Part shown: positions 491 through 47,576 of the stretch, one piece after another
Position numbering within the stretch: position 1 is the stretch's first letter
Layout of the letters: every line of letters starts with the position of its first letter
The notes under the pieces: model-generated
Seen by the model: the letters and a program-made list of their open reading frames with translations, nothing else
Databases searched by the model: none
What the model was told of the DNA's origin: nothing
Assembly: GCA_046328795.1 (NCBI GenBank)
Contig: JAXLVX010000009.1
Coordinates: forward strand, 11,276-75,275
Origin: Anaerolineales bacterium
Lineage (GTDB): Bacteria > Chloroflexota > Anaerolineae > Anaerolineales > Villigracilaceae
Direction of reading: 5' to 3'
Length of the DNA: 64,000 nucleotides
Translations under genes and position numbers: made by a program

Positions 491-2047
491 TTAGATCCCG
501 CCGCGTTCTTTCAACACTTCTCTAATTTCTTTTTCAAGGCTGTCGGCTTTGGCTTCAAGCTCGTAGAGTTCTTTCAACATTTTTCCGCCGGAGGAGGAAG
601 CCTCGCCAAGCGATTTGATGTTGATGCGAACATTGTACCCTGCGGCAGTGAGCGCGGCTCGACACATCGCAAAACCAGACATCGAATCGCTGACCGCGCT
701 GACCAGCCCATGTTTGGCGCACTTCAACGCAAGTTCCATCACTTTGACCACATCATCGGCAACGTGAAGAGGGACATTCGCGGCGTTGAGCGTCGCTTTG
801 TGGATGGCGGCAGAACGCGCGAGTTTTTGTTCGTCGGTCTCTTTGGGAAGTTTGAACGTCGCCATCAACACTTCAAAAGAGGAAGCATCGTCATCCACTG
901 CTTGCGTTAACTCTTTGCGATATTTTTCCGCCATCACGCGGATCGCCTGCATTTCGGCTTCCACCGACTCGTATTTCTTTTTGCCGATGGTGAGCCCTGA
1001 AACCATCGCGACCAGCGCGGCTCCGAGCGAACCGGCGTACGCGCCCGCAGAGCCGCCGCCGGGAGTCGGCGTGGGGGCGGCTAAGACGTCCACGAACGAG
1101 GCAGGCTGAGGAGAGAGAGAATCGGGAGAATTAGAGGATTGGAGATTGGAGACTGGAGATTGGTAAAGTCGTGATTCTAAAATCTGCGCTTTGTCGAATT
1201 GATCGAGTTGTGTGTACCAGACCGCCGCATCCACCAACGCTTCTTGCGGGATCAACCCGACGAGTTCGCAGTGATGAATGTTGACGCCGTATCGCTGCGC
1301 TTCGCGTCGAATGAATTCGACAACGCGCGCGATGGGCGTCTCGTGAAAGTTGGTGAGGTTCATCGAAACCTGCGCGCGACCATCCACGAGCAAGCCGAGA
1401 CCTTTGACGTAACGAAGTCCGCCCGATGAATGGCGCACCGCCTTGGCGATTTTTTTTGCAATGCTCACATCGTCGCTCGTGAGATAGACATTGAACGCGA
1501 TTAGCGGATTGCGCGCACCGATGACCGTTGCCCCCGCCTTCGGAAGTTTGCTCGGGCCAAAATCGGGTTTGCGATTCGGGTCGGATTCGATTTCGGTTTT
1601 GAGTCCCTCGTATTGCCCTTTGCGGATGTTTTCGAGATTGGCGCGTTCAGGACGCGTTGCCGCCACTTCATATAAATAGACGGGGATGCTGAGTTCGCCA
1701 GCGATGCGTTGACCAAGCCTCTGCGCGATCGCAACGCACTCGTCCATCGTCGCGCCGCCGAGCGGAACGAACGGAACAACATCCGTCGCGCCGATGCGCG
1801 GATGCTCGCCCGTGTGCGCGTCGAGGTCAATGAGTTCGGCGGCGGTCTTGATCGCGCGGAACGCGGCTTCTTCCACACCTGCTGGCGAACCAGCAAAGGT
1901 CAGCACCGTGCGATTGTGGTCAAGGTCGGAGGAACGGTCGAGGAGTTTCACCTCGCTGACCGCTTCGATGGCGGCGACGATCTGGTCTATCACTTCAGGT
2001 CGCCGCGCTTCGGAAAAGTTGGGGATACATTCGATGAGGGATGTCAT
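491..2047 (-). CDS. ftcD: Bifunctional glutamate formimidoyltransferase / formiminotetrahydrofolate cyclodeaminase
   Basis: ECIPNFSEARR, DHNRTV and GEHPRIGATDVVPFVP (FT domain) plus C-terminal PTPGGGSA and NVRINI (cyclodeaminase). Confidence 0.95.
   Translation of the reverse strand: MTSLIECIPNFSEARRPEVIDQIVAAIEAVSEVKLLDRSSDLDHNRTVLTFAGSPAGVEEAAFRAIKTAAELIDLDAHTGEHPRIGATDVVPFVPLGGATMDECVAIAQRLGQRIAGELSIPVYLYEVAATRPERANLENIRKGQYEGLKTEIESDPNRKPDFGPSKLPKAGATVIGARNPLIAFNVYLTSDDVSIAKKIAKAVRHSSGGLRYVKGLGLLVDGRAQVSMNLTNFHETPIARVVEFIRREAQRYGVNIHHCELVGLIPQEALVDAAVWYTQLDQFDKAQILESRLYQSPVSNLQSSNSPDSLSPQPASFVDVLAAPTPTPGGGSAGAYAGSLGAALVAMVSGLTIGKKKYESVEAEMQAIRVMAEKYRKELTQAVDDDASSFEVLMATFKLPKETDEQKLARSAAIHKATLNAANVPLHVADDVVKVMELALKCAKHGLVSAVSDSMSGFAMCRAALTAAGYNVRINIKSLGEASSSGGKMLKELYELEAKADSLEKEIREVLKERGGI
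1124..1166. repeat. In-frame 7-mer tandem repeat inside the ftcD interdomain linker
   Basis: Units such as TTGGAGA/CTGGAGA encode YQSPVSNLQSSNSP; the same unit family is intergenic at 14376-14449 and 48540-48591. Confidence 0.8.
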
Positions 2048-2048
2048 A

Positions 2049-2089
2049 GGATTTTCGATTTACGATTTCAGATTTTGGATTTTAGATTG
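2049..2089. repeat. 7-mer tandem repeat (GATTTTN) in the ftcD 5' leader
   Basis: gattttc gatttac gatttca gattttg gatttta gatt lies between a minus-strand TATAAT and the ATG. Confidence 0.85.
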
Positions 2090-2246
2090 CCAAGGGCAAT
2101 TATAGCGGTAGATTTTGTTTTCGGAATTACAGAATAATCCGTCAAACAGAACGGGTAATTTCTGACAAAACTCATACATAACCATCGGTAAAAATCACAA
2201 TGAGTATTTCGTCAATTGAGTAAATTAACTTTTACGAGGTGCATAC

Positions 2247-2663
2247 GTGAGTTCAAACAATTGGAATCAGGGGATCATTGACGAATTTCGAGCCAATCAA
2301 GGCAAAGTTGGGGGACGGTTTGAAGGGAAAACTTTACTTCTCTTACACACAACGGGCGCAAAGAGCCATAAGCCGCACATCAACCCGGCGGCATACGTGA
2401 AAGATGGAGACCGCTATGTGGTCATTGCATCCATGGGCGGCGCTCCAACCAACCCAGACTGGTATTACAACATTGTCGCCAATCCAGCCGTCACAGTGGA
2501 GGTGGGAACGGAAGAATTTCAAGCCAACGGCAAGGTGATCAAGGATGAGCCTGAGCGGACACGTCTCTATAACAAAATGGCGGACATGATGCCCGCTTTC
2601 AACGATTACCGCCAGAAAACATCGCGCGTCATCCCGGTCATTGTTTTGGAGCGCAAGCAATAA
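2247..2663 (+). CDS. Deazaflavin (F420)-dependent nitroreductase family oxidoreductase (Ddn/FDOR-A type)
   Basis: IIDEFRANQGKVGG, LLLHTTGAKS, ASMGGAPTNPDWYYN and RVIPVIVL. Confidence 0.9.
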   Translation: MSSNNWNQGIIDEFRANQGKVGGRFEGKTLLLLHTTGAKSHKPHINPAAYVKDGDRYVVIASMGGAPTNPDWYYNIVANPAVTVEVGTEEFQANGKVIKDEPERTRLYNKMADMMPAFNDYRQKTSRVIPVIVLERKQ

Positions 2664-2686
2664 AATTCTCCTCGGTGCGAACCATC

Positions 2687-2713
2687 CAACCTCCTGACTT
2701 TGTCGGGAGGTTG
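2687..2713. terminator. Hairpin, probable terminator
   Basis: caacctcctgac-ttt-gtcgggaggttg inverted repeat after the stop codon. Confidence 0.5.
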
Positions 2714-2787
2714 TGCATTTAAGCCAATTTATCGCGTAGGGAAGTAGTACAATCAAGAAAATCAACCTAGGCACAAGGAGCAAATTG

Positions 2788-3192
2788 ATGTCCACAGAAG
2801 AAAACAAAACTCTCGTTCATCGCCTTTTCAACGAAGAATTCAACAAATTGAATTCGACAGTCATCGAGGAAATCGTCGCCGCCGATTACATTGATCATAG
2901 CGCCATACCTGCTCCTGTACCCGGCGTGGAAGGATTCAAAAAGCGCACCGCCATGTTGCGGGCGGCGTTCGCTCCCAAAATGTCGTTTGGTGAATTCCTT
3001 GCAGAAAACGACCTAGTCGCTTTTTCGTGGACAATGGATGGAGTTCACCAAGGTGCATTCGCAGGCGTGCAACCCACAGGCAAAAAAATAATGGTATCGG
3101 GCATCAATATCGAGCGGATGAAAGACGGAAAGGTCATCGAACATTGGAGTCATTTTGATATGGCTGGTTTGATGAAACAGATCAACACATAA
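2788..3192 (+). CDS. SnoaL-like ester cyclase family protein
   Basis: MSTEENK, GVHQGAFAGVQPTGKKI and DGKVIEHW; SD AAGGAG upstream. Confidence 0.9.
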   Translation: MSTEENKTLVHRLFNEEFNKLNSTVIEEIVAADYIDHSAIPAPVPGVEGFKKRTAMLRAAFAPKMSFGEFLAENDLVAFSWTMDGVHQGAFAGVQPTGKKIMVSGINIERMKDGKVIEHWSHFDMAGLMKQINT

Positions 3193-3332
3193 CCATGGTG
3201 CATAGATGATCGGGGGTTGAAACGATCGTTTGGAGAAACATCCAAAGGCATAAAGAGCCACGAGAAGGTTGGTGCATGACCATTAATAGGGGTAAATTTT
3301 CGTAAATTGTTCGATGGTATAATCCCGCCGAT

Positions 3333-4490
3333 ATGTCCTTAGAACCTTCATCACAAAAATCACAGATCTGCCCCACGTGTGGAACGCGCTTGAGCGAGAA
3401 CGCTACGCGCTGTCTCGTGTGCGGGACGGAACTTAAAACAAAAGCCGCAACCAAAGCGAAAAAAGCGGATACGGTCGTGCAAGCCAGCCGCATGCCCGAA
3501 GTGACGCTCAGCCTGCCTGCCGCGCTTGCCGCGCTCGTCATCGTGCTGTTGATCGGCGCGGTCGGCGTATATTTTATTCTTTCGTCCGGCGCAACGGGCA
3601 CGTCAATTGTGACGCCGACAGCCGAAGGCACGACGACAGCCACCGCCACGATCACGCCTACCCCAACAGAACTTCCGACCGGCACGCCAATTCCTACCGA
3701 AACGCCATTGCCTCCATTCGATTACAAAGTGCGCGAGGGTGAAACGTGCGGAGTGATCGCCGCGAACCTCAAAGTGTCGGTGCAAAGTATCATCATCACA
3801 AATCAACTTTCATCCGAATGTTTTGTATCGGTGGGACAAACATTGAAGATTCCATATCCCACCTCCACGCCTGCGCCGCCGCCGACGGAAATTCCCAACG
3901 AGGCGACGCAAACTGCGCAGGCTTGTGAAAAAGTGGTGTACACCGTTCAAGCGAATGACACGCTTTCCAGCATCGCGGCAAATTACAACGTCCCGCAAGA
4001 TGCGATCAAGTTTTACAATGGACTCTCATCGGATAATGTTTTACTTGGAACGACATTGGTTGTTCCTCTTTGTGAACGATTCGCCACGCCGGGACCGACT
4101 CCCACGCCGACGCTTCCGCCTCCCTACCCCGCCCCGAACCTGCTCCTCCCAGCGGATGGCGCCGCGTTCACGTTAGCCAACGACGTGGTCACACTGCAAT
4201 GGGCGTCTGTGGGAACTCTGCGCGATAACGAAAGATATCAAGTCATCATCGAAGATGTGACCACCGGCGAATTGCGCATCACCGATTACGTGACCGACAC
4301 GAAATACATCGTGCCGACATCCTTCCGCCCGAACGATAACCTCGCGCACCTGATCCGTTGGTGGGTAACGACGGTCCGGCAGAACGGCGTGGACGAGCAA
4401 GGTCAGCCCGTGTGGGTCTCCGCTGGCGCGGTCAGCGATAAGCGCGCCTTCACGTGGGTTGGAGTGGCAGTGCAAACGCCGAAGCCGTAG
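3333..4490 (+). CDS. Membrane-anchored LysM peptidoglycan-binding protein with N-terminal zinc ribbon
   Basis: CPTCG..CLVCG, a TM helix, Thr/Pro linkers, two LysM repeats (YKVREGET, YTVQANDTLSSIA) and a C-terminal beta domain. Confidence 0.85.
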   Translation: MSLEPSSQKSQICPTCGTRLSENATRCLVCGTELKTKAATKAKKADTVVQASRMPEVTLSLPAALAALVIVLLIGAVGVYFILSSGATGTSIVTPTAEGTTTATATITPTPTELPTGTPIPTETPLPPFDYKVREGETCGVIAANLKVSVQSIIITNQLSSECFVSVGQTLKIPYPTSTPAPPPTEIPNEATQTAQACEKVVYTVQANDTLSSIAANYNVPQDAIKFYNGLSSDNVLLGTTLVVPLCERFATPGPTPTPTLPPPYPAPNLLLPADGAAFTLANDVVTLQWASVGTLRDNERYQVIIEDVTTGELRITDYVTDTKYIVPTSFRPNDNLAHLIRWWVTTVRQNGVDEQGQPVWVSAGAVSDKRAFTWVGVAVQTPKP

Positions 4491-4525
4491 AGTCAGCCCG
4501 AAAGTCCGAAATGAACCGGAATTTC

Positions 4526-4555
4526 ATCCCCGACAAGCCAGTCGGGGATTTTTTG
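4526..4555 (+). terminator. Rho-independent terminator
   Basis: atccccgac-aagcca-gtcggggat followed by a T-run. Confidence 0.75.
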
Positions 4556-4559
4556 TGCC

Positions 4560-4615
4560 TTGACAGAATCGAAATCCTGATTAAAATATTCGCATTATTC
4601 AATTTCTCGAATAAT
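4560..4615 (+). promoter_or_regulatory. Sigma70-type promoter with adjacent inverted-repeat operator upstream of the ArsR gene
   Basis: TTGACA(4560)-16 nt-TAAAAT(4582), then ATTATTC-N8-GAATAAT (4594-4615). Confidence 0.65.
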
Positions 4616-4635
4616 TCAATTCCTTGGAGAGAAAA

Positions 4636-5739
4636 ATGGCGCCATTTGCTATCACACTAGAAAAAACCCGAAGCGATGAAAAACTGATACGAGTTGAGCC
4701 AGCCCTGAACGCGTTCGGGAGCATGTTGCTCACATCGAAAGAAGATGAACAGCCCGGGCTCCACGAGTGGGTCACGAAAACCCGCATGGCGATGTCTGCC
4801 GAGGAACTCTTCCGCCACAAATTGGTGTTGATCGGATTTCATTATTCGGTTCTGCCGAAGACTGCCGGGGCGTCTTTTGAATCGTATTTGGAAAGCCTCG
4901 ATGCCACTCCCCCTTCCGAGTTCCGCGAGAAACTGTTGAACGCTTACACCAAAATGTGCTTCACCGATGAGTCGCGCGGACTGGCGGGCCAGCCGGTGGA
5001 TTGGGATGAAGTGCTTTCCTCGGCAAAGAATTATGTTGAATTTCTGCGTTTCCGCTTCGGCGACAAACTGACCGATGTAGACGTTGAAACCCGCGCCTAC
5101 GAATATGTGATTGACCCTGCCGCTCTCAAACAATTGATCACCGGTCACATCCGCTGGTTTTGGAAGAATCACTTGCAAGCCGAATGGACGCGCGTGCGCC
5201 CAATGTTGGAAGAATCGGCGAAAGCCTTCAATAAACTCGAACTCGCCGATATGACCCGCGCCGACCTGATCAAATTCATCACCGGCAAGGGCGTCGAGGA
5301 AGATAAATGGGAAGGCGAGTATGAGAAGGCGAAGGAATTGATCTTCATCCCCAACGCTCACCTCGGACCGTATATCCGCGCCGCCAAGATCGGCGAGAAT
5401 TTCTACATTTATTTTGGCGCTCGCACGCCCGAAGGCTCTGACGTGAAGATTCCCGACCTCGATCGCGCGGAGATCGTCTCGCGGCTTTCGGCTCTGTCAG
5501 ACGATACCCGCCTCAATATTCTGCGGATGATCGCGGAAAACGGCGAAATGCGCGCGCAAGAAATCATTGACGCGATCAGCCTCAGCCAGCCAAGCGTATC
5601 GCGTTATCTTTCACAACTTACTGCCACAGGCTATTTGCAAGAGAGGAGAGAAGGCGGAGCGAAAGTATATTCATTAAGCAAGGATCGTATTGAGAAAACG
5701 CTCAAGGCGGTTAACGCCTTTTTACTGGGAAGTTCGTAA
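4636..5739 (+). CDS. ArsR/SmtB family transcriptional regulator with long N-terminal domain
   Basis: C-terminal ALSDDTRLNILRMI..LSQPSVSRYLSQL..G winged HTH; SD GGAGA before ATG 4636. Confidence 0.85.
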   Translation: MAPFAITLEKTRSDEKLIRVEPALNAFGSMLLTSKEDEQPGLHEWVTKTRMAMSAEELFRHKLVLIGFHYSVLPKTAGASFESYLESLDATPPSEFREKLLNAYTKMCFTDESRGLAGQPVDWDEVLSSAKNYVEFLRFRFGDKLTDVDVETRAYEYVIDPAALKQLITGHIRWFWKNHLQAEWTRVRPMLEESAKAFNKLELADMTRADLIKFITGKGVEEDKWEGEYEKAKELIFIPNAHLGPYIRAAKIGENFYIYFGARTPEGSDVKIPDLDRAEIVSRLSALSDDTRLNILRMIAENGEMRAQEIIDAISLSQPSVSRYLSQLTATGYLQERREGGAKVYSLSKDRIEKTLKAVNAFLLGSS

Positions 5740-5764
5740 CTGTTCCAACCGAAGGAGAATTTCG

Positions 5765-6007: not shown

Positions 6008-6020
6008 TGTACGGAGCAGA

Positions 6021-8330: not shown

Positions 8331-10099
8331 GTGCGTGCCGTTCAGTACCCGTCTGCTGGGCGCACCCGGCGACAACAACAGCAAGAGAAAGAACATGAAC
8401 AAAACATCCCGGCGACCGCAAGAGAGCCGAAGTCGCCGAGTTATCTGGCCAACCCGATCAGATCCATCCGTTTATTCGGTTTTGCGTCCTTTCGTCGACA
8501 AGCAAGATGCGCAGCTGATGCTGGCCTGCGATCAGACGACGATGCGCGTATTGATGAATCTTATGGACGATAAGAGATCATATTGATGTCGAACTCAACA
8601 GCCTCCACGCAAACCACCAAAGCCTGCGTGATAACGATATCGAAGAACATAGGCGCGCGAGATAATGGTCGCAGAGCAGTTCTCAGAAAAATCATTAACC
8701 AGTACCGCCAGCAACGGAAGCCATTCGCCAGGCCAGAACAAAAGCGAAAACTCGCTGATAAAATCAGTTCGGTTTTCGCATGTACCACCGGGCAGGCTGG
8801 AATGGGCTTACCGCAAAAAGAAGAGGATCCAAGGTTTTACCATCCGATGCCGTTGAGGAAATTCGAAGCTGTAAGAAGGCACTGTTTGCGATAACGAAAC
8901 CTTTTCCGCCAATCAAGATCGAGAGGAGTACCCAAACGGCTCGAATGAATATCGAATACCCGTGACAAGGCCGCAGGCCAGTGCGGCGCGATCACGTAAA
9001 CAGCGAATCTAAACTCGAAGTGGTCCCAAGAGCAGAACCCTGTTTAAAATAAAGGTGGCGGGGAATTACCATTAAATCGAATTTAGAAAATATATTTTGA
9101 ATTGAAGATGAACATCTTAATTTCTTCCTCATCATAATGGCATAACGAGCCAGAAAACTGAAGAAACTGGATAGAACAAATCAATGTGTCACCAGGAGTA
9201 TTCAACGAGCCGTTTAACGATTTCATTTTTGAAACCTATAATAATTTAAACGAATAATCTTTTGTACCGTCAAAATAATAAGAACGTCACGATAACGTCG
9301 CCGAAGTCGCGGTAGTCTACTCCACCGAAGCCAGAACAAACCAAACTTGAATCCAGTATACAGACCGGTGACCAAAGTTTGATGTTCCAAGTCGCCAGAG
9401 GAATGGACGCAATATTTAACGGTACCAGTGAATAACGTCAACGGTAATATAGAAGACGAAACAAAATGACAGGTTATTTATAATAGACTTGCTCAATTAA
9501 TATCCATCCTGTTGCCGATAAAGGAACCACAAGGTTTGTTCATCTAAAACAGATTATTTGATCCATCAAGTGAGTTGTGAAAACGGTTGTTGAAGTAAAT
9601 ATCATCCCGTTCAAATGATTCATTGAGACAACGAATGGGTGATCCTTTCACGAGCAAAATTGAAAAAATTAGAGGCCGGCGATTGAGCCGAAGCCAATCT
9701 GGCGTATTTAGGAGAAGTCAGAGGCATAACTAGGTGAAATGATAGCCAAGATCAAAACCTTATGTGGTTCCTAGGTGAAAGAAAATTAGAACAACGTAGG
9801 CCTTGAATATCGACCTTGCATATAACCGGGAAACATGGAATATGACCCAAGAAACGGGAATTTTCGATTGTAAAAACCTTTCATAATTTGCATCAGCAAC
9901 AACATAAAACAAGAGATTATAATAAAGCAACCAGAAAAGATCGGATCACTAATGAATGGAGAAATCTTGAGTTCCGTGTGTTCAATATATCATCTTGGTG
10001 ATGGTTTTGTTTTGTTCTTGTTCTTTAGTGAATTCCAGGATTCAGCACACAGGGACGAGTGCGATAAGTCTCTTATCTACTCCAGCAATCTTCCCCAAC

Positions 10100-13000
10100 A
10101 CTTCAGACACTTCCTCTCCATTTACTCGTGCCTAACCACACTACTGGCGCGGACTTGCTGCCTTTGGGATCTCGGCGCTTAGTCAATTATGAGGCGCTGG
10201 GTTCGTTCAAATGGGAGCGGGATAGCGCAAATATTCCGTTCCAGCTTCAGCGATATGATGGTCTCACCTTCTCGCTCGGACGAGTATGTGACAAAATGAG
10301 ATCTGCGTTTGCCAGTACTGCCAAATGATTTTAACTGAGGCGAGTGTCAATCTCGGTTTCGTCGCGTAAGTCTGCAATACGACGATACAGACGCAAGCGC
10401 AAATCTTGATCGGGAATGTACTCGGGCGGGGATCCTGACGGCGAGGAAGGTCAACGTTGACGGGCATGGAGATGGGAAGACTAAAGGATGAAGGATGAAG
10501 GATGAGCGGCAATTCATCCTTCTTTCCTCTTTCTTCTTTCTTCGCATCGCGTGATGCCTCAATCCTCCGAATCTGCCTCACCGCATCCGCCAGCAACCTT
10601 GTGTACAAATGAAACCCAACGGCTTGAATATGTCCCGATTGACGCGTGCCGAGCAGTTCACCCGCGCCGCGAATTTCGAGGTCGCGCATCGCTATCGAAT
10701 AGCCCGCGCCGAGTTGCGTGTTTTCGGCGATCACTTCGAGCCGCTGTTGACCGTCCACGGTGGGGGTCAGCTTGTTGTGGCGAAAAAAGTAGGAGTAGGC
10801 GCGCGCAGCTCCACGTCCGACACGACCGCGCAGTTGATAGAGCTGAGCAAGTCCGAAGGTGTCGGCGCGATCCACGATGAGAGTGTTCGCGTTGGGGATG
10901 TCCAATCCAGATTCGATAATTGTCGTTGAGAGCAAAATATCCGTGTCGCCGTTGTTGAAGCGGTGCATCACATCCGAAAGTTGATTCTCTGGCATCTGCC
11001 CATGACCGATATCCACGTTCGCTTCGGGGACGAGTTGATTGAGATGCGCCTTCATCGCGTCAATGGTTTGGACGCGGTTATGCACGAAGAAAATTTGCCC
11101 GCCGCGTTCGAGTTCGCGCAGGATCGCCTGCCGCACAAGTTTCGGCGAATACGGACCGACATGCGTGACGATGGGCAAGCGTTCCTCGGGCGGCGTGTTG
11201 AGATTCGAAATATCGCGCACGCCCGTGAGCGCCATGTAGAGGGTTCGCGGAATCGGCGTGGCGGTGAGAGTCAACACATCCACTTCGGTGCGAAGTTTTT
11301 TGAGATGCTCTTTGTGCGTGACGCCGAAGCGTTGTTCCTCGTCAATGACCACCAAGCCAAGTTCTTTGAATTGCACATCGCCAGAGATCAAACGATGCGT
11401 GCCGATGACGATGTCAATCTCGCCGATGGCAAGCCCGTGCAAAATTGTCGTTTGCTCGCGCGGAGTTCTAAAACGCGAAAGCATTTCCACTTTTACAGGG
11501 AACGCGGCGAGCCGTTGCAAAAATGTTTCGTAATGTTGTTGCGCCAGAACAGTTGTCGGAACCAAAATCGCAACCTGCTTGCCGTCCATCACGGCTTTGA
11601 ACGCGGCGCGTAACGCGACCTCCGTTTTGCCGTAGCCCACATCGCCGCACAACAAGCGATCCATTGGGCGCGACGATTCCATATCGCGTTTGATGTCGTT
11701 CAACGCGCGCAATTGATCGTCGGTCTCCACATACGGAAACGAATCTTCCAACTCTTTTTGCCACGCGGTATCGGGCTTGAAAGAATATCCCAGCGCAACA
11801 TTTCGCCGCGCATACAAATCCAACATGTCCTGCGCCACTTCCAACACCGCCGCTTTGACACGCCCCTTTTTCTCGTGCCACTCCTGCCCGCCCAAACGAT
11901 CCAACGCGGGCATCGCGCCCTCCGCGCCGACATAACGCGTGAGCCGATCCGCTTGATGCACAGGCACGTACAACTGTCCGCCGCCGTCATATTCCACCGC
12001 GAGAAATTCGCGCGCGTGGTTATCGAGTTCGCGCGTCACCAATCCGCCGAAACGCCCAACGCCGTGATCAATATGCACCACGTAATCGCCCGCGTTCAAA
12101 TCCGCGTACACCGATTCGGGAGTCTCGGCGACGGGTCGCTGGCGCGTGCGCGGTTGCGGGCGTTCCCAGCCGAAGACTTCAGAATCAGAGATTAAGTGCA
12201 GAGATTGGTAATTGGTAAGTGGTAATTGAGGAGAAGAAAGAGAATTAGAGAATTGGAGATTGATGACGAATCCTTCGGACAAAGACGCTTCAATGAATAT
12301 TGGTTTATTGGATTCCGACTCTTCGACATTCGACTCGCCCCAAAGTTCCTCTAACCGTTTGGCTTGACGCGACACAACGACAACCGCTTCTTTTCTCGAC
12401 GTGAGGTCTGCCACGCGCTCGGCGAACTGTTTCAATCTTCCAGCGAATCGCTCGTCATGACCAAAGCAGGAAGCCAAAGAATTCTCTAATTCTCTAGTCT
12501 CCAGTCTCTCTTCCCCCGAATATCAAACTCAATGAAGGATTTTGTATGCGCATCATACAACTCCGACCTGGCACATACGGCAGCGGAAACTCAGCGGACA
12601 ATGTTTCTTCCGCGATACTATCACTGAAAACGCTGCTGTTGCTCTCCGGTACATTTCTCCCGCCATCAGTCGTCATCCATTTATCATCGGCTCCAGCAGC
12701 AGCGCAGAGAAATAATCAATGACCTCGCTGAATTTGCAGGTAAGTGAGAGAATATGGTCGGTGGACTAATTTCATATTCCATGTTTGTTTCGAATATTTC
12801 TTACTGGGCATGACGGATGATCCAATTTCTCAATAATCATTGGAGGAACCGGATCGAGCTTGCGGAATCATTTCAATCTCGTCTTGAAAATCCAACGGTA
12901 TCCTCTTCAACGGTACGGATATCTTGAAATACCATACGGAAGATTGTCAAGCTCAACCACAATTGTTGACGCGTTAAATGTAGAATCTCACCTTTATCCC

Positions 13001-13468
13001 CAACAATATCGAATGAACCGGATGACCAATGGCTCATTTTACTTTTGAGAAGTCTATGCAGCGCGGTATAATATCAATAAACAGGCAGAAGTGATGACTC
13101 AATTGTGAAGAACAGATTTTGGTGTTGATAAATGGTAATTTGCAAAATCGCTTATCGCCTTCCAGCAGATGTGCGGCAGGTAGTCGCCCACGAACGCTCG
13201 CCAGCGCAGCGCCAGACCAGTTCCGCCAGATAAAGTAGCGCAGCGACTTGACCCAAAATCCCAACTCATCGAACATGGACAACGCGTGGTCGGCGCGGTC
13301 GGTGATGAAGAGATCGGCTGTTTGATATCTTCGAGCAGCGCCGCAAGGACAGGCAATCGCGCGGCGCGCGGCGTCCCAACCCAGCGATTTGTTTTCCGCC
13401 TTTAAACTGAGTCAGCGGGTTCTACCCGATGCCGAGGAGCGAACGGATGTTATTGGAATCAATTCCAT
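10100..13468 (-). CDS. mfd: Transcription-repair coupling factor; core intact at 10264-12477, N- and C-terminal parts frameshifted or garbled (ends approximate)
   Basis: GDYVVHIDHGVG (CarD-like RID), GDVGYGKT, DEEQRFG, TATPIPRT, QLRGRVGR and DLEIRGAG; an out-of-frame C-terminal YIPDQDLRLRLYRRIA; N-terminal fragments near 13100-13470. Confidence 0.9.
10483..10543. repeat. In-frame inverted 7-mer array inside mfd
   Basis: (AAGGATG)x3..CATCCTT CTTTCCT CTTTCTT CTTTCTT encodes KKEERGKKDELPLILHPSSF. Confidence 0.85.
12200..12262. repeat. In-frame 7-mer array inside mfd
   Basis: GGTAATT/GAGAATT units encode NLQFSNSLSSPQLPLTNYQSL. Confidence 0.8.
12478..12510. repeat. In-frame 7-mer array inside mfd
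   Basis: ATTCTCT/AGTCTCT-type units read ERLETRELENS in the mfd core frame. Confidence 0.7.
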
Positions 13469-13683
13469 AAATACGCTATTACAAGGCAACTCCGAAGGGT
13501 AAAATGACTATAGATATTGCAGACGGTTATTGTCAACCCGAAGAAGTGTCATAATTTCAGCGTAGATCATGTCATCCCTTCGGGATTTGGGGTACGGTGC
13601 GCGGAGTCTACAATCGTTTCATCCCTTCGGGATTATTGTCGCAGTGATCTCGAACTATTCAGCGTAACATAAATTGGTTTACC

Positions 13684-13735
13684 GTAGTAACGACTTCAGT
13701 CGTTTTTTTGCAACAACGACTGAAGTCGCCACTAC
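13684..13735. repeat. GTAG-headed REP doublet, family 1
   Basis: Arms nearly identical to the 7508 copy. Confidence 0.9.
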
Positions 13736-13779
13736 GATGTCAGGCAATCATGGTTACTCGGAATGATCTCTAGTCATCT

Positions 13780-14364
13780 AGTCTCTAGTCTGCGTCGCCG
13801 TGGAAACTTATTCATCGCCGCATTCAAACCATTCACCACAAATTCCAACGCGGCGTCGGCGGCGCGGTCGAGGAGTTCGGAGAGAGATTTCAGATCGTCG
13901 CGCGAGAAATTTTGCAGGACGTAGTCGGCAGGATCCATACGACGGGCGGGCGACCGATGCCGAGTCTCATGCGGGGAATGTCTTTCGTGCCAGTTTCTCC
14001 AAAATGGACGATAAACCGCGCTGACCGCGGAGTCCGCCTGCGAACGCGGATACGGATAGTGCCGAAAGGGAAGATCAAGATCATCAGGAAGGATCATCAG
14101 AAGTTTTCGTTGGGAATCTTGTAGAAGTGAGCCAGTCCCTGCACCGATTGACCTGAAGAGATTCATGTAGGTCTGCGGCAGCAAGGATGAGTTTGTGGTC
14201 TTCATATTTCAGATCCATCACGATGGCTTTCGATTACCGTATCCCGCGCGCGCGTTGAGCCGCACGGCGAGGCGGTCAATTGCCATGAAGCCGAAGTTGT
14301 GCCGCGTGTTGGCGTATTCACGTCCTGGGTTGCCGAGACCGATGAGGAGGAAGGGGTTTGTCAT
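13780..14364 (-). CDS. pth: Peptidyl-tRNA hydrolase, frameshifted (end approximate)
   Basis: [45 protein letters not shown] and [11 protein letters not shown] across frames. Confidence 0.9.
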
Positions 14365-14375
14365 AAAAGAGTTCC

Positions 14376-14449
14376 GTAATTGGTAAATGGTAATTCGTAA
14401 TTAGAGACTGGAGATTGGAGACTGGAGAATTAGAGAGTTAGAGAATTGG
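14376..14449. repeat. Intergenic 7-mer tandem array
   Basis: GTAATTG GTAAATG GTAATTC GTAATTA GAGACTG GAGATTG GAGACTG GAGAATT.. Confidence 0.9.
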
Positions 14450-21188: not shown

Positions 21189-21265
21189 CACCACAAAGGA
21201 CACGAAGAACACAAAGGAAAACCTTTGGGTTTAATACCTTCGTGACCTTTGTGTCCTTTGTGTTT
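21189..21265. repeat. Inverted 9-mer tandem array
   Basis: CACAAAGGA CACGAAGAA CACAAAGGA..CCTTCGTGA CCTTTGTGT CCTTTGTGT. Confidence 0.85.
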
Positions 21266-41989: not shown

Positions 41990-42140
41990 CAGCAAAGAGT
42001 CTTCACCGTTATCGTATGAGACTCTTCGCTCCGCTCAGAGTGACATGGCAATAACGCAAAACGGGACTGTGACACACAGTCCCGTTTTTGATTCTGCAAG
42101 ATATGCGCTTCGACTACGGACTTCGTCCTCCGCTCAGCGC
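41990..42140. repeat. CTGAGC-type palindrome fragments flanking a bidirectional terminator (42058-42089)
   Basis: CTTCGCTCCGCTCAGAGTGACA; AAAACGGGACTGTG..CACAGTCCCGTTTT; CTCCGCTCAGCGC. Confidence 0.7.
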
Positions 42141-42147
42141 GGAGAAG

Positions 42148-43600
42148 TTAAAACAATTTCAACAACGCTTCGCTTGCCCAGGCGAACAAGAATTGCGGGA
42201 CGAAACTTACGATCACTGTCACCAAGGCGGTGACTATCATAGTCGCATCGAGCCACGGTTCGCGTTCGGCGGCGGGTTCGCCGTCTTTCATGTACATGAT
42301 GACGACGACGCGCAGATAGTAGAATGCCGAGACAACCGACGTCAACACGCCGATGACTGCAAGCCAGATAAAGCCGCCGTCAATCACGGCGCGGAAGAGA
42401 TACAGTTTTCCGATGAGCCCGATGGTGGGAGGTAGACCGATGAGCGAGAGCATGAAGATGGTCATCGCGGCGGCGAGGGCGGGATGTTTCTTCGCAAGAC
42501 CGGCGTAATCATCCAATGCCAGCCCCTTGCCTTCTTGTTTCTCCAATGCAATGACCACGCCCCACGCGCCGAAGTTGGTGAACACATACGCCACGAGGTA
42601 GAACAAGCCCGCCGCAATAGCCACATCGCGGACATTGTCATTGCCGTAGGGGACGAACGCCATGAGGATGTATCCCGCGTGAGCAATGGAGGAATACGCG
42701 AGCAGGCGTTTGATGTCGGTCTGCGCGATGGCGACCACGTTGCCGACGATCATCGTCGCGGCAGAGATGACCCAGAACACGTCGGTCATGTCGGCGGCGA
42801 GGGAGGGGAACGCGGTGGCGAACACGCGCAACAACGCGGCGAAGCCCGCGATCTTCGCGCCGGAGGACATGAACGCGGTCACCGCGGTGGGCGCGCCTTG
42901 ATACACGTCGGGAGTCCACATGTGGAAGGGAACGGCGGCGACCTTGAAGCCGAACCCGATGAGGAGGAGGGCGGCGCCGATGGTTAGAAGTGCGACCGCC
43001 GTTCGTCGAAGCGGAAGCGGACTCGACGATGGCAAAAATGTTGCGGGGATTGAGTTCGCGCCGAAGATGAGGCGCGATCCTGCGGTGACGAGAAATCCAG
43101 AAGAGAACGCGCCGATGGTGGCATTGAGTCCCGCTTCTTCCGATTCTGTTTTATCGCGCGAATGCGGGTGCGAGAACGCAGATGGGGATCGTGCCGTTGC
43201 GCCTCCGAGCGAGGAAGACGATGATGAGGTCGGTGGCTTGCGCCATGAGCATCATGCCGACGACGCTGAAGAGGAGCAGGGTGTAGTATTCGCCGCGTTC
43301 GATGCCCATGCGTTTGACGTAGCCGTAGGCGACCGCGACGCCGAGCAAACCGCTGACGAGGAGCAACGCGTTGACGAAGATCGAGAAGCCGTCGAGCGTG
43401 ACCATGCCGTTGAAGCCTGTCACTTCGCTCCCGATCTGCGCGAGGGTGTAGCCAAGCGTGACGGCAAGACCCAACGCGGAGAGCAATGCGGTGATGCCTT
43501 TGCGATCCTTCGGGATGAAGAGGTCAACCAGCAATAGCACACATGCCCAAACGGTGAGGATGAGGAGCGGGAGGATGGTGGTGAGGTCGGATTGATTCAT
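42148..43600 (-). CDS. nuoN: NADH-quinone oxidoreductase subunit N, frameshifted around 43035-43200
   Basis: GEYYTLLLFS, FKVAAVPFHMWTPDVYQGAP and KRLLAYSSIAHAGY. Confidence 0.93.
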
Positions 43601-43606
43601 TTTTTA

Positions 43607-43796
43607 GCCACAGATTTCACGGATTGGCACGGATTTTATTTTTTGTTTCATGGTGGTCGAGTAAGCGGCGGTGTTCGCCGCTGTATCGGCACCACATAAC
43701 AATTCTCATTAGTACCTTTGCGAGTCTCGAGAAGCAATCTGTTGTTTTGGCGAGATTGCTTCGTCGCGAAGAGCAAGCGCGCTCCTCGCAATGACA
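43607..43796. repeat. nuoM-nuoN spacer: 9-mer array, GGTCGAG palindrome and partial TGTCATTGCGAG palindrome
   Basis: CACAGATTT CACGGATTG GCACGGATT; GGTGGTCGAG..CACCAC; GAAGCAATCT..CTCGCAATGACA. Confidence 0.8.
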
Positions 43797-45324
43797 TTAT
43801 GGCAATGGCAACATCCCAAATCAGATGATTCACGGCGGGCGCCATGAGGTTGAAGAACGGCGCGGGGTATAAGCCGATCCAGAAGATGAGGATCAAGAGC
43901 GGAACGACGGTAGCGATCTCGCGCCAGTTGAGGTCGCGGATGGCGTGTCCATGTTTCTTGGTTTCTTCCACAACTTCGCCTTGCGGACCCATGAACATTT
44001 TTTGGAACATGTACAAAATGTAGATCGCCGCCATGATGACGCCAAGCGCGGAGATCGCCGCGAACCAGACGTTGCCCCAATAGAAGACTCCGTTTTGTCC
44101 CGCGCCCCATGCGCCGAGCAAAATGGTGAATTCGCCGACGAAGCCGTTCAAGCCGGGCAAGCCCATCGAGGAGAGCGAGACGATGAGATAGATCGTGCCG
44201 AAGACCGGCATGATCTTCCACAAACCGCCGTAGACTTTGAACTCGCGCGTGTGAGTCTGTTCGTAGACCATGCCGACGAGCAAGAACAACGCGCCCGTGC
44301 TGATGCCGTGATTGATCATCTGCAAGATCGCGCCCGCAATGCCTTCGGGGTTCAACGCGAACAAGCCGAGCATCACAAATCCCAAGTGGCTCACGGATGA
44401 GTACGCGACCAACTTCTTGATGTCGGGCTGGGCGTACGAGACCGCGGCGCCATAGATGATCCCGATGGTGGCGAGGAGGGCGATCCACGGCGCGGCTTGG
44501 AGAGTCGCTTCGGGGAACAAGGGGATGTTGAATCGCACGAAGCCGTATGTGCCTAGCTTCAACAGCACGCCCGCCAAAATCACCGAGCCTGCGGTCGGCG
44601 CTTCAACGTGCGCATCGGGAAGCCACGAGTGCAGGGGCCACATCGGCACTTTGATGGCGAACGCGGCGGCGAAGGCGATGAACAACCACATTTGAATGTT
44701 CACAGGGATGCCGCCTTGCGCGATCAGGTCAGGCAGAGAGAAAGTCTTGCCGTGAATGCCGAGCCACAGGATGGCAAGCAACATCAAAATGGAACCCGCC
44801 ATAGTGTAGAGGAAAAATTTCAACGCGGCGTAGATGCGGCGCGGTCCGCCCCAGATGCCGATGATGAAGTACATCGGCACGAGCGTGAATTCCCAGAAGA
44901 TGTAGAAGAGGAACAAATCCTGCACGAGGAACACGCCATTCATACCGATCTCCAGCAGGAGGAAGAAGATCATGTATTCCTTGACGCGCTCTTCGACAGC
45001 CGTCCACGTGGAGAGGATCGAGATCGGCGTGAGGAGCGTCGTCAGCAGGACGAGCAGGATGCTCAAGCCGTCAATGCCGAGGAAGTATTGGATGTTCCAG
45101 CCTGCCACGGTGATCCAGTCGTAGCGTGCCACCATCTGCAAGTCCGTGTTCGAGGCGTTGAATCCTTTCAACACGCCCAGCGAGATGATGAACGTCACGA
45201 TCGAGACGATGAGCGCCGTCCAGCGCATCGCGTTTTTGTTTCCGCTGGGGATGAAGAGCAGAATCAAAACTCCCACCAGCGGGAAAAAGATCAGCAGAGT
45301 AAGCGGTTGTAAAAGAAATTCCAT
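43797..45324 (-). CDS. nuoM: NADH-quinone oxidoreductase subunit M; likely true end NHLIGMLPLP* at 43797, where one extra T extends the called ORF
   Basis: FWEFTLVPMY, KVPMWPLHSWLPDAHVEAP and KLVAYSSVSHLG. Confidence 0.95.
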
Positions 45325-45335
45325 GTTCAGTCCTC

Positions 45336-45394
45336 TAGGTCGCAAGTTGAATGTCAAAGGTCGAAAGCCGAGCGTTCGATCTTTGACCTGCGAC
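45336..45394. repeat. Inverted 7-mer array in the nuoL-nuoM spacer
   Basis: AGGTCGC AAGTTGA ATGTCAA AGGTCGA..TTCGATC TTTGACC TGCGACT. Confidence 0.75.
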
Positions 45395-47576
45395 TATTTG
45401 AAAATCAAATACCCAAGAATAAAGACAACTCCCAATAAGATGGACAGCGCGTACGAGCGCACGAATCCGTTCTGGACCTTGCGGAGGGTCGCCGCTAGCG
45501 ACTGGGTCCACGTCCCCAAGCCGTTCGCGAAGGCGTCAATGCCCTGCTGATCGGCGTACTTGTTCAAGCCGATGAAGCTGATCCAGTTGTACGTTCCCAT
45601 GATGACCTTCTCGTGGAACCAGTCATGCCAGAAACGCCAGTCAATCACTTCGGCGACGAAATAGGAAAGCTTGATATATGGGTTGATGAACAGGAGGTGA
45701 TAGAGTTCGTCAATCCACCATTTATTGTTCATGCCTTTGAACGCCAAGCCCAGCGACGCGAGCGGATCGGTCTGATCCTTTGCGAATGGTTTTCTTCCGT
45801 AGAGCAACCATGAGATCAAAATGGCGAGCAACGCAAGGACGGTTGAAACGCCCGCCACTTGCAAATTCAACGGGAGCGATTCCACTTCGCCAAGGGTGTG
45901 CGCGAGCCAGTGACCGAGATTGTGGAAACCTTCAAACGGCAGGTTGAGCGCGCCGCCCAAGACCGAAAGCGCCGCCAGAATCATCAACGGGACGGTCATC
46001 ACTTTGGGGCTTTCCTCCGCGTGCGCCGCGGCTTCGTGCCGCGCCTCGCCGAAGAAGACCATCCAGATCTGTCTGCCCATGTAGAACGCGGTGAAAAATG
46101 CGGCGATGGTCAACAACCAATACCATCATCTGATTTCTCAGGACGACCGCATCGAGCAAAATTTCATCCTTCGACCAAAATCCCGCGAACGGAGTGAATA
46201 CAGCCAGATAACGCAACCGTGCCAGCGATGTAGACCCAGAAGGTGACAGGCATGGTCTTGCGAAGCCCGCCCATGTTGCGCATGTCGCCGGGGTCAAAGA
46301 CCTCGCCGTGACCTGTTGCATCATGATCATCGTGCGCGTCGTGCCCACCACTTTCCACTTTCGACTTTCCAATCTTCTTTTTCCCCTTGCCATGACTATC
46401 GTGATTCGCGTGCGCATGTTCCGCATGATGATGTCCACGCTCCATGCCGAGGATGACCGAACCCGCGGAAAGGAAGAGTAATGCTTTGAAAAATGCGTGC
46501 GTCACGAGATGGAACATCCCTGCCACGTAGGCGCCCATGCCGACCGCCGCGACCATGAATCCGAGTTGCGAGATGGTGGAGTACGCCAGCACTTTCTTGA
46601 TGTCGAATTGACCGGCGGCGATCGTCGCGGCGAAGAGCGCGGTGACGCCTCCCACCAGCGCGACGATATTCTGCGCCTCAGGCACCGACGAGTACAACGG
46701 CGCGGAACGCGCAACGAGATAGACGCCCGCCGTCACCATCGTCGCGGCGTGGATGAGCGCCGAAACGGGAGTCGGACCCGCCATCGCGTCGGGCAACCAC
46801 ACATACAACGGAACTTGCGCCGATTTTCCCGTCACACCTAATAAGAAGAACAAGGTGATCGCAAGGATCACGCCTTGCGAAACTTCGGGGACTTTTTGAA
46901 ACACGGCGTCGAACTGCAAACTGCCAAACGCCCAAAACATGATGAAGGTTGCGATCAAAAAGCCGAAGTCGCCGACGCGGTTGGCGACGAACGCTTTGAC
47001 CGCGGCGAATGAATTTGCCCACGAAGGTCGCGCGAGCAAGTCCAGGTCGTACCAGAAGCCGACGAGCAGGAACGAGCATAGCCCCACCCCCTCCCAGCCG
47101 ACGAACAACATCAGATACGAATCGCCGCTGATGAGGATCATCATCGCGGCGATGAAGAGGTTGAGAAAAACGAAGAAACGGCGGAACCGCCCCACGTCGT
47201 TTTTGAAGCGCACATCTTCGTGCATGTATCCGATGGCGTAGATGTGGATGAGAGTCCCGACGCCCGAAACGACCAGCATCATCATGGTGGAGAGCGAGTC
47301 GACGCGGAACGTCCAATCGAGGGAGAGGTCGCCGATGCGAATCCATTCGGCGAGATGCCAGCGCATCGCTTCGCCGTGCGCGCCCGATAGTGTTACATAC
47401 AACAGGACCGACACAACAAAGGTCAGCCCTGAGAAGAGACTCGCCGTCACGCCGATCATCCGCTCGCTAAACTTGCCGCCGAAGATAATGTTGATGAGCA
47501 AACCGATGACCGGGAAAAATACCAGCCAGGGGGCGAGGAATAAAAATCCTGTGTTTACTGATTCGCTTAAGTGCAT
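45394..47576 (-). CDS. nuoL: NADH-quinone oxidoreductase subunit L, frameshifted around 46110-46210
   Basis: GWEGVGLCSF, NRVGD, KSAQVPLYVWLPDAMAGPTPVSALIHAATMV and HAFFKALLFL. Confidence 0.95.

What the first reader, a model, noticed from the sequence alone, without database searches (positions are those of the whole stretch)
1124..46371. Intergenic repeat families also occur in frame inside core enzymes, including three times in mfd
Seen in sequence: the 7-mer units that form intergenic arrays (e.g. GAGACTG/GAGATTG/GTAATTG at 14376 and 48540) also sit inside reading frames without breaking them. Sites are the ftcD linker (1124-1166, YQSPVSNLQSSNSP), mfd at 10483-10543 (an inverted array, KKEERGKKDELPLILHPSSF), 12200-12262 and 12478-12510, and the nuoL loop (46348-46371, GKSKVESG). 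Established: in-frame Rickettsia palindromic elements create new peptide segments, and 7-mer STRR arrays are known in filamentous cyanobacteria. Inference: a repeat-spreading process is writing low-complexity peptides into domain linkers, and only frame-preserving events survive.
Basis: partly seen in the sequence, partly recalled or inferred. Interest (0 to 1): 0.8.

Follow-up and report, generated by a model that had tools for sequence, protein, structure and literature searches.

The report
Swappable heptamer hairpins in enzyme loops
Runs of 7-base repeats sit in frame inside core genes of this sludge bacterium, in predicted flexible loops where close relatives carry different repeats at the same spot; they are likely gene-less remnants of a small repeat-flanked cassette, and are likely swapped between species by ordinary recombination.

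Summary
All five arrays are real, in frame and beyond chance. Contigs from three other studies carry the three mfd arrays without indels. This assembly's mfd and nuoL are themselves broken, most likely by assembly error. Genome-wide, 78 of 264 heptamer arrays lie inside 62 called genes. Between two clean relatives, 23 of 23 coding indels keep frame, 6 of them at arrays. The sites are mostly overwritten slots, not simple insertions. In mfd, recJ and glyQS the same loop holds a hairpin of a different repeat family in relatives, with both arms changed together. One mfd loop is 52% identical between flanks that are 88–100% identical. Inverted arms bracket 59 of 71 four-helix-bundle (23S-IVS-protein) genes versus 13 of 400 control genes, and the arm families look like those in the loops. 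Best reading: gene-less cassette arms, filtered by selection and exchanged by interspecies recombination; the step that first writes an arm is unknown. The closest print parallel is repeat-class replacement in the Nostoc trnL P6b hairpin. This scan has already found the cassette (186 findings) and in-frame cases on other DNA.

The parts
491..2047 (-). ftcD, fused formiminotransferase-cyclodeaminase, 518 aa, intact
   Evidence: TIGR02024 on residues 1-294 and a cyclohydrolase-type match on 317-514; PDB 1tt9
1124..1166 (-). Single heptamer arm in the inter-domain linker of FtcD (YQSPVSNLQSSNSP); no hairpin on its own
   Evidence: fold z -0.38; linker 297-330 pLDDT<50; span 39 codons versus 30-33 in 14 of 17 congeners
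10346..12622 (-). Main part of mfd; frameshifted near both ends in this assembly
   Evidence: TIGR00580; 88% DNA identity to G008; intact in near-identical strains
10483..10543 (-). mfd site C: purine-rich arm, spacer and pyrimidine-rich arm forming a hairpin just after the last helix before the C-terminal domain; a replaceable allele
   Evidence: fold z -4.03, 0 of 200 shuffles; seven hand-defined classes in 38 genomes; 52% identity to sister G053
12200..12262 (-). mfd site B: pyrimidine-rich compound array, a net insertion in a predicted beta-hairpin loop
   Evidence: 23 codons versus 5-10 in array-free congeners; loop 422-432 pLDDT<50 between two strands in the model of G073 Mfd, which has the same allele type
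12263..12477 (-). Host coding segment bracketed by the complementary arms A and B; itself exchanged between relatives
   Evidence: 51-74% identity between G053 and G073 where the rest is mostly 82-97%; RNA-library contigs X16 and X17 carry 241 other letters across 12194-12451
12478..12510 (-). mfd site A: purine-rich array complementary to site B; overwrites a loop without net length gain
   Evidence: 16-nt inverted match to B; A-B score at least 12 in 9 of 34 genomes, but A is replaced by another family in G045 and G067 with B unchanged
12623..13235 (.). Unrelated 44% G+C DNA standing where about 720 nt of mfd belong; likely misassembly
   Evidence: contigs of other strains continue as mfd at 12622
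13236..13504 (-). Frameshifted N-terminal piece of mfd
   Evidence: tblastn and blastn with G008 and G017
14375..14447 (.). Intergenic compound array upstream of pth, sharing unit families with ftcD and mfd sites A and B
46164..47576 (-). nuoL, first 470 codons; the rest lies in another frame at 45394-46116
   Evidence: open frames of 718-760 aa in 14 of 17 congeners with a hit, the other three shorter
46348..46371 (-). Single heptamer arm (GKSKVESG) inside an older His/Lys-rich loop of NuoL
   Evidence: the loop is absent from solved NuoL 8qby; G048 lacks this segment
48540..48592 (.). Intergenic gene-less hairpin (two facing arms) between nuoI and nuoJ

Best explanation
The in-frame arrays are likely gene-less arms or empty hairpins of a small cassette, a four-helix-bundle (23S-IVS-protein) gene between inverted heptamer arrays, that have come to occupy predicted flexible loops of host proteins and are likely replaced there as whole alleles by interspecies homologous recombination through the conserved coding flanks. 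Step 1 (shown): a limited set of repeat families occurs in three settings in this genus, namely as arms around four-helix-bundle genes, as intergenic hairpins, and inside genes. Step 2 (inferred, mechanism unknown): a new arm or hairpin is first written at a gene junction or in a loop; involvement of the four-helix-bundle protein is a guess by analogy with REP/RAYT pairs. Step 3 (shown as a pattern): selection keeps only frame-preserving, mostly stop-free, loop-located copies. Step 4 (pattern shown, cause inferred): once several alleles exist for one loop, gene-scale recombination between species moves them around, so sister genomes carry unrelated hairpins at the same loop. Step 5 (inferred): slippage adjusts unit number locally. 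The peptides are probably near-neutral.
For: Cassette link: 59 of 71 distinct four-helix-bundle loci have inverted arms (score at least 12) versus 13 of 400 size-matched control genes (many loci are orthologous, so they are not independent). In G000, 5 of 6 such genes score 14-24 and the sixth pairs at 16. By eye the arm units match the families at ftcD, mfd A/B, mfd C and nuoL and the alternative site-C alleles. Intergenic arrays tend to keep cassette polarity: 27 versus 11 before starts, 46 versus 27 at or after stops. Filter: 78 of 264 arrays are internal against 63% expected; the stop-free orientation is favoured 19 to 5 in genes against 29 to 30 between genes; 23 of 23 coding indels between G073 and G053 are multiples of 3, against 4 of 54 intergenic ones. 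Replacement: both arms of mfd site C change together across 38 genomes (own pair 10.1, cross pair 7.8), the classes are scattered on the tree of the flanking core, and the G000-G053 loop is 52% identical with flanks at 88-100%. The non-repeat start of the G000 allele occurs once in the genome and matches distant congeners, so it cannot have been copied from a dispersed repeat. Family switching at one loop also occurs in recJ, glyQS, ligA and an E2 acyltransferase gene. The FtcD linker holds at least six allele kinds among 46 long linkers of 119 homologues. Tracts of 91-98% identity between genomes with a median of 76-77% are common. The junction that holds one G000 cassette has other palindromes or another gene in all 4 relatives where both flanks were found.
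Against: No catalytic or binding activity is shown for the four-helix-bundle protein, and no mobility event was observed. One cassette is present at the same junction in 4 of 5 relatives, so it is old and inherited. The commonest array family in G000 (the LPITNYQ type) was not seen as a cassette arm among the 71 loci. Most arrays are unpaired: a partner in cassette order within 400 nt was found for only 6 of 70 coding and 23 of 149 other labelled arrays, and some short pairs lie in the opposite order. The numerical overlap between cassette-arm units and in-frame units was not computed. In G073, 20 of 29 arrays are internal, about the coding share, so depletion from genes is not general. Retained ancestral polymorphism could mimic lateral exchange.
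Confidence: 0.55

Rival explanations
1. Generic replication errors do everything. Slipped-strand mispairing expands heptamers locally, template switching makes the complementary arm, and four-helix-bundle genes merely sit in the same permissive junctions.
For: Most arrays are single arms. No reverse transcriptase was found in G000 or in the closed genome G017. Heptamer excess is widespread in bacteria (PMC4692102, passages). Two of six array-linked coding indels are multiples of 21. Earlier scan notes read NadB and pyrK/pyrD cases this way.
Against: The same few unit families recur genome-wide (61 classes, dominated by about a dozen) and bracket one gene family at 59 of 71 loci versus 13 of 400 controls. 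Four of six indels are not multiples of 7. Local slippage cannot restore the mfd-specific non-repeat start of the G000 site-C allele.
Confidence: 0.2
2. The hairpins are active hot spots. A break or nick at the hairpin, made by a host hairpin nuclease or a cassette-linked protein, triggers short gene conversion centred on the loop, so repeat families displace one another in a homing-like way.
For: In mfd, close pairs fall to distant-pair identity only in the variable loops and the A-B interval (3-14 of 25 pairs in five of six such windows), and in none of 24 conserved windows (0 of 25 each). Identity dips only in the 60 nt next to loop C. The 1475-nt G000-G053 tract in mfd ends at arrays on both sides. 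GxxExxY-family genes are flanked by 9-mer inverted arrays.
Against: Across the aligned stretches only 7 of 116 tract ends lie near an array against 2.8% expected (p about 0.045). Site B shows no discordance (0 of 25). Swaps are only visible where alleles are deeply diverged, which biases the window test. Repeat-free variable loops were not available as a control.
Confidence: 0.15
3. The in-frame hairpins or their peptides are kept by selection, for example as mRNA structures that tune translation or decay (RNase III-type substrates), with any complementary family doing the job.
For: Site C forms a strong hairpin (z -4) and keeps a pair of arms through family changes, as P6b does in Nostoc trnL (PMC4476775, section 18). 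A reporter study suggests regulatory effects of upstream heptamers in Nostoc (bioRxiv 2022.06.06.494920, passages).
Against: In 16 of 38 genomes the site-C pair has decayed to background (own score 7.1, cross 6.9). Many congeners lack arrays at ftcD, A and B. The ftcD and nuoL arms do not fold, and the whole A-B region folds no better than shuffles (z -0.38). No RNA-library contig skips an array (contigs only, weak).
Confidence: 0.08
4. The arrays or their in-frame position are artefacts of an error-rich assembly.
For: G000 shows 120, 77 and 195 frame-breaking coding indels against three relatives, and mfd and nuoL are broken.
Against: Independent short-read contigs keep the three mfd arrays without indels. 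High-quality relatives carry the same or equivalent arrays in open frames of 1130-1250 aa. The FtcD linker recurs in other assemblies.
Confidence: 0.02

Closest known systems
Class I / Class II heptamer stems of the trnL group I intron P6b region in Nostoc (PMC4476775; abstract, passages and section 18 read)
   Same: A hairpin built of two complementary heptamer arrays at a fixed site; the repeat class is replaced as a whole several times and does not follow the phylogeny.
   Different: Here the hairpins are in protein-coding loops of many genes, there are at least six classes, frame and stop codons filter them, and similar arms flank four-helix-bundle genes.
Dispersed heptamer repeats (cyanobacterial STRR; Beggiatoaceae repeats, PMC4679880, abstract, passages, sections 10 and 15 read; Xanthomonas/Nostoc repeats, PMC4692102, passages; Geobacter Gmet_H4 elements, PMC2700814, passages)
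   Same: Period 7, short arrays, mostly intergenic near starts and stops, some inside ORFs with an orientation set by stop codons; paired inverted arrays in Xanthomonas; intragenic copies in Geobacter.
   Different: In Beggiatoaceae the coding copies are mostly at protein ends or in hypothetical ORFs; here 78 are internal, including core enzymes. The parts of these papers that I read report neither family switching at a coding site nor a partner gene.
REP/REPIN elements with RAYT transposases, and intragenic REPs including Rickettsia palindromic elements (PMC3116915 and PMC3733652, passages)
   Same: Gene-less hairpins dispersed through the genome, family-specific partner genes flanked by the same repeat, and in-frame copies in loops of repair and replication proteins.
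   Different: The arms are degenerate tandem heptamers and not a fixed palindrome; the partner is a four-helix bundle with no known catalytic activity, not an HUH tyrosine transposase; many coding sites are overwritten instead of lengthened.
ORF-bearing intervening sequence of 23S rRNA (S23p / PF05635; PMC4990558, abstract and outline only)
   Same: The same protein family, in an element of similar size.
   Different: Here the cassettes lie between protein-coding genes, and gene-less arms lie inside reading frames, where excision without religation would destroy the message. No excision was seen.

Membership tests
Dispersed heptamer SSR / STRR-type repeats | Genome-wide excess of short tandem arrays with a 7-nt unit | tested here: met
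   264 arrays, 74 per Mb versus 1 per Mb in the control; periods 5 and 6 near background
Dispersed heptamer SSR / STRR-type repeats | Mostly intergenic, near starts and stops | tested here: inconclusive
   149 intergenic and 37 terminal of 264 in G000, but 20 of 29 internal in 800 kb of G073
Dispersed heptamer SSR / STRR-type repeats | Length change in whole units by slippage | tested here: inconclusive
   Array-linked coding indels between G073 and G053 are -15, -6, -6, -3, 21 and 42; these species are too distant to resolve single events
Rickettsia palindromic elements (RPE) | In-frame presence in functional genes at loops or linkers | tested here: met
Rickettsia palindromic elements (RPE) | One conserved palindrome family, copies alike over their whole length (length of about 100-150 nt recalled) | tested here: not met
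   In-frame arrays are 18-64 nt, fall in 26 unit classes, and the genome matches listed cover only 16-38 nt of arm
Rickettsia palindromic elements (RPE) | Net insertion relative to orthologues | tested here: inconclusive
   Met for ftcD and mfd B; not met for mfd A and C, which are replaced at similar length
REP/REPIN with RAYT | Gene-less inverted doublets dispersed in the genome | tested here: met
   57 short-spaced inverted pairs among 70 rows (some rows duplicate), though most heptamer arrays are single
REP/REPIN with RAYT | Cognate Y1/HUH transposase gene flanked by the same repeat | tested here: not met
   None of 7 PF01797 hits has a heptamer array within 300 nt; the flanked genes are four-helix-bundle genes
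23S rRNA intervening sequence (S23p type) | PF05635/TIGR02436 gene inside inverted arms | tested here: met
   For the cassettes elsewhere in the genome and genus: 59 of 71. The in-frame arrays carry no gene.
23S rRNA intervening sequence (S23p type) | Located in an rRNA gene | tested here: not met
   The G000 cassettes whose flanks were printed lie between protein-coding genes
23S rRNA intervening sequence (S23p type) | Cut out of the RNA by RNase III | not testable with these tools
   Only contigs were available; none skips an array
Diversity-generating retroelement or other RT-templated repeat | Reverse transcriptase in the genome | tested here: not met
   PF00078 not found in G000 (84% complete) or in G017 (2 contigs, 99%), found in 11 of 31 genomes

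The most novel reading that the evidence does not exclude
Heptamer-armed four-helix-bundle cassettes are an undescribed class of transposase-free selfish elements. Their protein writes or converts its own repeat family at hairpin sites, so that rival families displace one another inside the loops of essential enzymes (Mfd, RecJ, GlyQS, LigA, FtcD, NuoL). This would explain the long-noted excess of 7-base repeats in bacteria and supply a steady source of new loop peptides in about 2% of a genome's proteins.
Probability: 0.15. Interest if true: 0.85.

Novelty: new variant of a known kind. Interest (0 to 1): 0.45.

Why it matters
Heptamer repeats have been noted in many bacteria without a known origin. 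This genus shows the whole series in one place: gene-filled cassette, empty intergenic hairpin and in-frame hairpin, with many close genomes to compare. Whole-hairpin family switching inside essential genes extends the Nostoc trnL P6b puzzle from one intron to protein-coding loops, and it names a candidate protein (PF05635) and defined DNA substrates for a binding test. Practically, these loops mislead alignments and gene trees, and peptides such as SPVSNLQ, LPITNYQ or ILHPSSF should be read as repeat-derived, not as functional motifs. My ten paper searches found no paper linking this protein family to heptamer arms or describing family switching in coding loops. The library lacks most subscription journals, and I read no supplements; those of PMC2700814, PMC3733652 and PMC4679880 list intragenic copies and may bear on novelty.

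Tried and rejected
RT-templated (telomerase-like or DGR-like) origin: no PF00078 match in G000 or in closed G017. RAYT as partner: 0 of 7 Y1 transposase hits has a heptamer array nearby. RNA-level removal of the arrays: no RNA-library contig skips one, but these are contigs and coverage of sites B and C by matching RNA contigs was missing, so this is weak. A-B as a conserved long-range stem: the region folds no better than shuffles, the arms decouple in G045 and G067, and within the nine paired genomes cross pairs score as well as own pairs (14.7 versus 15.3). Arrays as general ends of recombination tracts: 7 of 116. The first window test used a fixed identity margin that conserved windows can hardly reach, so it was replaced by a rank-based one. 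The protein-level indel count against G073 caught few arrays (8 rows of 167 blocks, one duplicated) and was superseded by the nucleotide analysis. The AT-rich DNA at 8900-10345 and 12623-13234 has no second copy in G000 and no long ORF; the first piece has no plasmid match. The Mfd model is low-confidence over 926-1008, so it says little about site C. A numerical comparison of cassette-arm units with array units was not completed; that link rests on reading by eye. The 2007 survey of prokaryotic simple repeats could not be fetched and is known to me only through PMC4692102. An in-frame heptamer insertion in Anabaena nifJ is recalled and was not found. Gene calls in G000, G073, G017, G053 and G054 come from my own Markov caller (and reuse), which under-calls frameshifted genes; only 7 array-bearing ORFs outside the window were checked against Pfam, 6 with hits. 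No complex prediction, fold search or atlas search was run.


Full report
Setting. The window is part of a 3.55-Mb, 160-contig genome, 84% complete. FtcD homologues that carry a name are labelled Anaerolineales, and near-identical DNA lies in sludge, wastewater and bioreactor metagenomes. I call the three mfd sites A (12478-12510), B (12200-12262) and C (10483-10543).

Observation. Synonymous recoding reaches the observed periodicity in at most 6 of 5000 trials. The genome has 264 period-7 arrays (74 per Mb) against 1 per Mb in a Markov control, 78 of period 8 and 34 of period 9, and almost none of period 5 or 6. With my own gene caller (3032 genes), 78 of 264 arrays lie at least 60 nt inside a gene, 37 overlap a gene end and 149 are intergenic; random placement gives 63% internal. 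The 78 fall in 62 genes, and 67 of them share an exact unit class with an intergenic array. In 800 kb of the 2.9-Mb relative G073, 20 of 29 arrays are internal; in 400 kb of the 5.0-Mb G017, 5 of 6. In-frame arrays are thus a feature of the genus.

Assembly quality. mfd is in pieces here: an N-terminal fragment at 13236-13504, unrelated AT-rich DNA at 12623-13235, frameshifts near 12522-12569 and 10426-10444, and a cut at 10346. nuoL and pth are also frameshifted. G000 shows 120, 77 and 195 frame-breaking coding indels against G054, G053 and G073, whereas G073 and G053 show none against each other over 199 kb of coding DNA. Contigs of near-identical strains in runs X4, X6 and X10 (three studies) cover A, B and C with no indel in the arrays, differ from the window at the frameshifts, and continue as mfd beyond both junctions (I read the loose ends against the alignments). 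The arrays are real, and the breaks are most likely errors.

Where they sit. The FtcD array is in the linker between the two domains, predicted disordered at 297-330. The same span is 39 codons here, 30-33 in 14 of 17 congeners and 38-40 in three. Among 119 of 120 homologues that could be parsed, 73 have the short linker and 46 a longer one of at least six kinds, including two heptamer families, a hairpin family and palindromes of REP type. In a model of G073 Mfd, which has the same A and B types, B lies in a low-confidence loop between two strands and A in a coil; C begins at the end of a helix in a region where the model is poor. B is a net insertion (23 codons versus 5-10), but A (17 versus 12-18) and C (39 versus 30-43) are replacements at similar length. 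The NuoL loop is absent from solved NuoL but is His/Lys-rich in all 17 congeners examined (35-63 residues) and present in other families; the array adds about 8 residues.

The filter. Between the clean genomes G073 and G053 (246 kb aligned, 93.5% identical), 23 of 23 coding indels are multiples of 3, six of them at arrays (-15, -6, -6, -3, 21, 42), against 4 of 54 intergenic ones. Of the 78 internal arrays, 24 have a unit with a stop codon in only one orientation, and 19 of these lie stop-free; between genes the split is 29 to 30 (p 0.007).

The slots are swapped. Site C is a hairpin (z -4.03). Across 38 genus genomes it falls into seven classes by my hand rules (16, 8, 5, 4, 3, 1, 1). A 5' arm pairs better with its own 3' arm than with another genome's (10.1 versus 7.8, 0 of 10000 permutations; relatives are not independent and the signal is at class level), and the classes are scattered on the tree of the adjoining core (31 genomes with the full core; midpoint root, no clade test). 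G000 and G053 are 88-100% identical on both sides but 52% in the loop, and G006, G010, G033 and G070, close relatives, carry four different classes. The non-repeat start of the G000 allele is unique in its genome and resembles distant congeners, so it was imported or retained, not copied from a dispersed repeat. Among 31 full-length Mfd genes (G000 not included), close pairs drop to distant-pair identity in five of six variable windows (3-14 of 25 pairs) and in none of 24 conserved windows. The same switch of family at one loop appears in recJ, glyQS and an unnamed ORF (3 of 4 array-linked coding blocks against 400 kb of G054) and in ligA and an E2 acyltransferase gene against G053. Interspecies exchange is general here: tracts of 360-1500 nt at 91-98% identity are common between genomes with median window identity 76-77%, and only 7 of 116 tract ends lie near an array (2.8% expected). 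Ordinary recombination is therefore enough to move loop alleles. A hairpin-centred hot spot is not excluded.

The partner gene. G000 has six TIGR02436 four-helix-bundle genes, and 57 of 61 genus genomes have at least one. Five of the six lie between inverted 7- or 8-base arrays scoring 14-24, and the sixth pairs at 16. Of 86 loci scanned, 71 remained after dropping duplicates, short flanks and one without a hit; 59 have inverted arms scoring at least 12, against 13 of 400 control genes. Reading by eye, the arm families include those of ftcD, A, B, C and nuoL and of the alternative C alleles; the LPITNYQ family was not seen, and no numerical overlap was computed. One cassette is shared by 4 of 5 relatives at the same junction. 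Another is missing from all 4 relatives where both flanks were found, and its junction holds other palindromes or an unrelated membrane-protein gene. GxxExxY genes are likewise flanked by 9-base inverted arrays, and none of 7 Y1 transposase hits has heptamer arms. No reverse transcriptase was found in G000 or in closed G017. That this protein family is related to the Avd protein of diversity-generating retroelements is recalled and also stated in scan notes; I did not test it.

Mechanism. Most likely (0.55) the in-frame arrays are gene-less arms or empty hairpins of these cassettes. They survive only in tolerant loops, in frame and mostly stop-free, and the resulting loop alleles are exchanged whole by recombination through conserved flanks, with slippage adjusting unit number. 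The shared anatomy, the filter and the swap pattern are shown; the cause of the swaps is inferred; the first writing of an arm is unexplained. Rivals: generic slippage with template switching (0.2), protein- or break-driven conversion at hairpins (0.15), selected RNA structure or peptide (0.08), artefact (0.02).

What is known. In print: heptamer arrays inside ORFs with a stop-codon orientation rule (PMC4679880, abstract, passages, sections 10 and 15); intragenic heptamer elements in Geobacter (PMC2700814, passages); paired inverted heptamer arrays (PMC4692102, passages); intragenic REPs and Rickettsia elements in repair genes (PMC3733652, passages); REPIN-RAYT pairing (PMC3116915, passages); repeated whole replacement of one heptamer class by another in trnL P6b (PMC4476775, passages and section 18); the S23p intervening sequence (PMC4990558, abstract and outline); selection on coding SSRs (PMC3315296, abstract and outline); upstream heptamers in Nostoc (bioRxiv 2022.06.06.494920, passages). 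PMC5524665 (passages) had nothing relevant. My ten searches found no paper joining the four-helix-bundle family to heptamer arms or describing family switching in coding loops. Within this scan the cassette has been reported in 186 findings, and in-frame and swapped cases several times; I saw the cassette link, before those look-ups.

Verdict. It works like REP/REPIN elements and like trnL P6b class switching but is a member of neither; it is best filed as a new variant of dispersed heptamer repeats. What this window adds is the genome-scale count and the evidence that in-frame hairpins are replaceable alleles. Interest 0.45.

Noticed in passing
window 8900-10345 and 12623-13235: AT-rich DNA (41-44% G+C) with no long ORF and no second copy in the genome interrupts and truncates mfd; other strains have normal mfd there, so a misjoin or faulty gap fill is likely.
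   Followed up: yes
window 13236-13640, 13774-14365, 45394-47576: Dense single-base indels break mfd, pth and nuoL; the genome's gene calls and its 84% completeness figure are probably affected by such errors.
   Followed up: partly
window 13520-13740: A cluster of palindromic REP-like elements between pth and mfd; one family has many copies genome-wide and also flanks a Y1 transposase gene on contig C35.
   Followed up: partly
window 21191-21263; G000 contigs C93, C156, C20: Inverted 9-base arrays form gene-less hairpins, and inverted 9-base arrays flank GxxExxY (TIGR04256) genes: a parallel gene-and-repeat pairing.
   Followed up: partly
G000 C68:44684-45288, C97:10814-11324: An 8-base family forms many hairpins and brackets one four-helix-bundle gene and one other small gene (cupin-like by eye, not tested).
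   Followed up: no
L049-L060 set, G023 FtcD (L060): In another family of the order the same FtcD linker carries a 9-base tandem repeat (GDGAT units, span 53 codons).
   Followed up: no
G000 versus G053 and G073, many contigs; window 59600-60470 among them: Gene-sized tracts of 91-98% identity between species that are otherwise about 76-77% identical point to frequent interspecies recombination in this genus.
   Followed up: partly
L073 (G015 nuoL), L252 (G045 nuoL), L018 and L168 (mfd A of G005, G046), P0004, P0057, P0072: Non-heptamer palindromes of REP type also sit in frame at the same loops, sometimes nested inside a heptamer array.
   Followed up: partly
window 46300-46450: NuoL of this genus has a long His-rich, Lys-rich loop absent from solved NuoL structures; possible metal binding is untested.
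   Followed up: no
mfd columns 208-262 of the alignment (L006, L014, L020): A further variable loop in the N-terminal part of Mfd, missing from this assembly, carries other repeat-like insertions and is the most discordant window (14 of 25 close pairs).
   Followed up: partly
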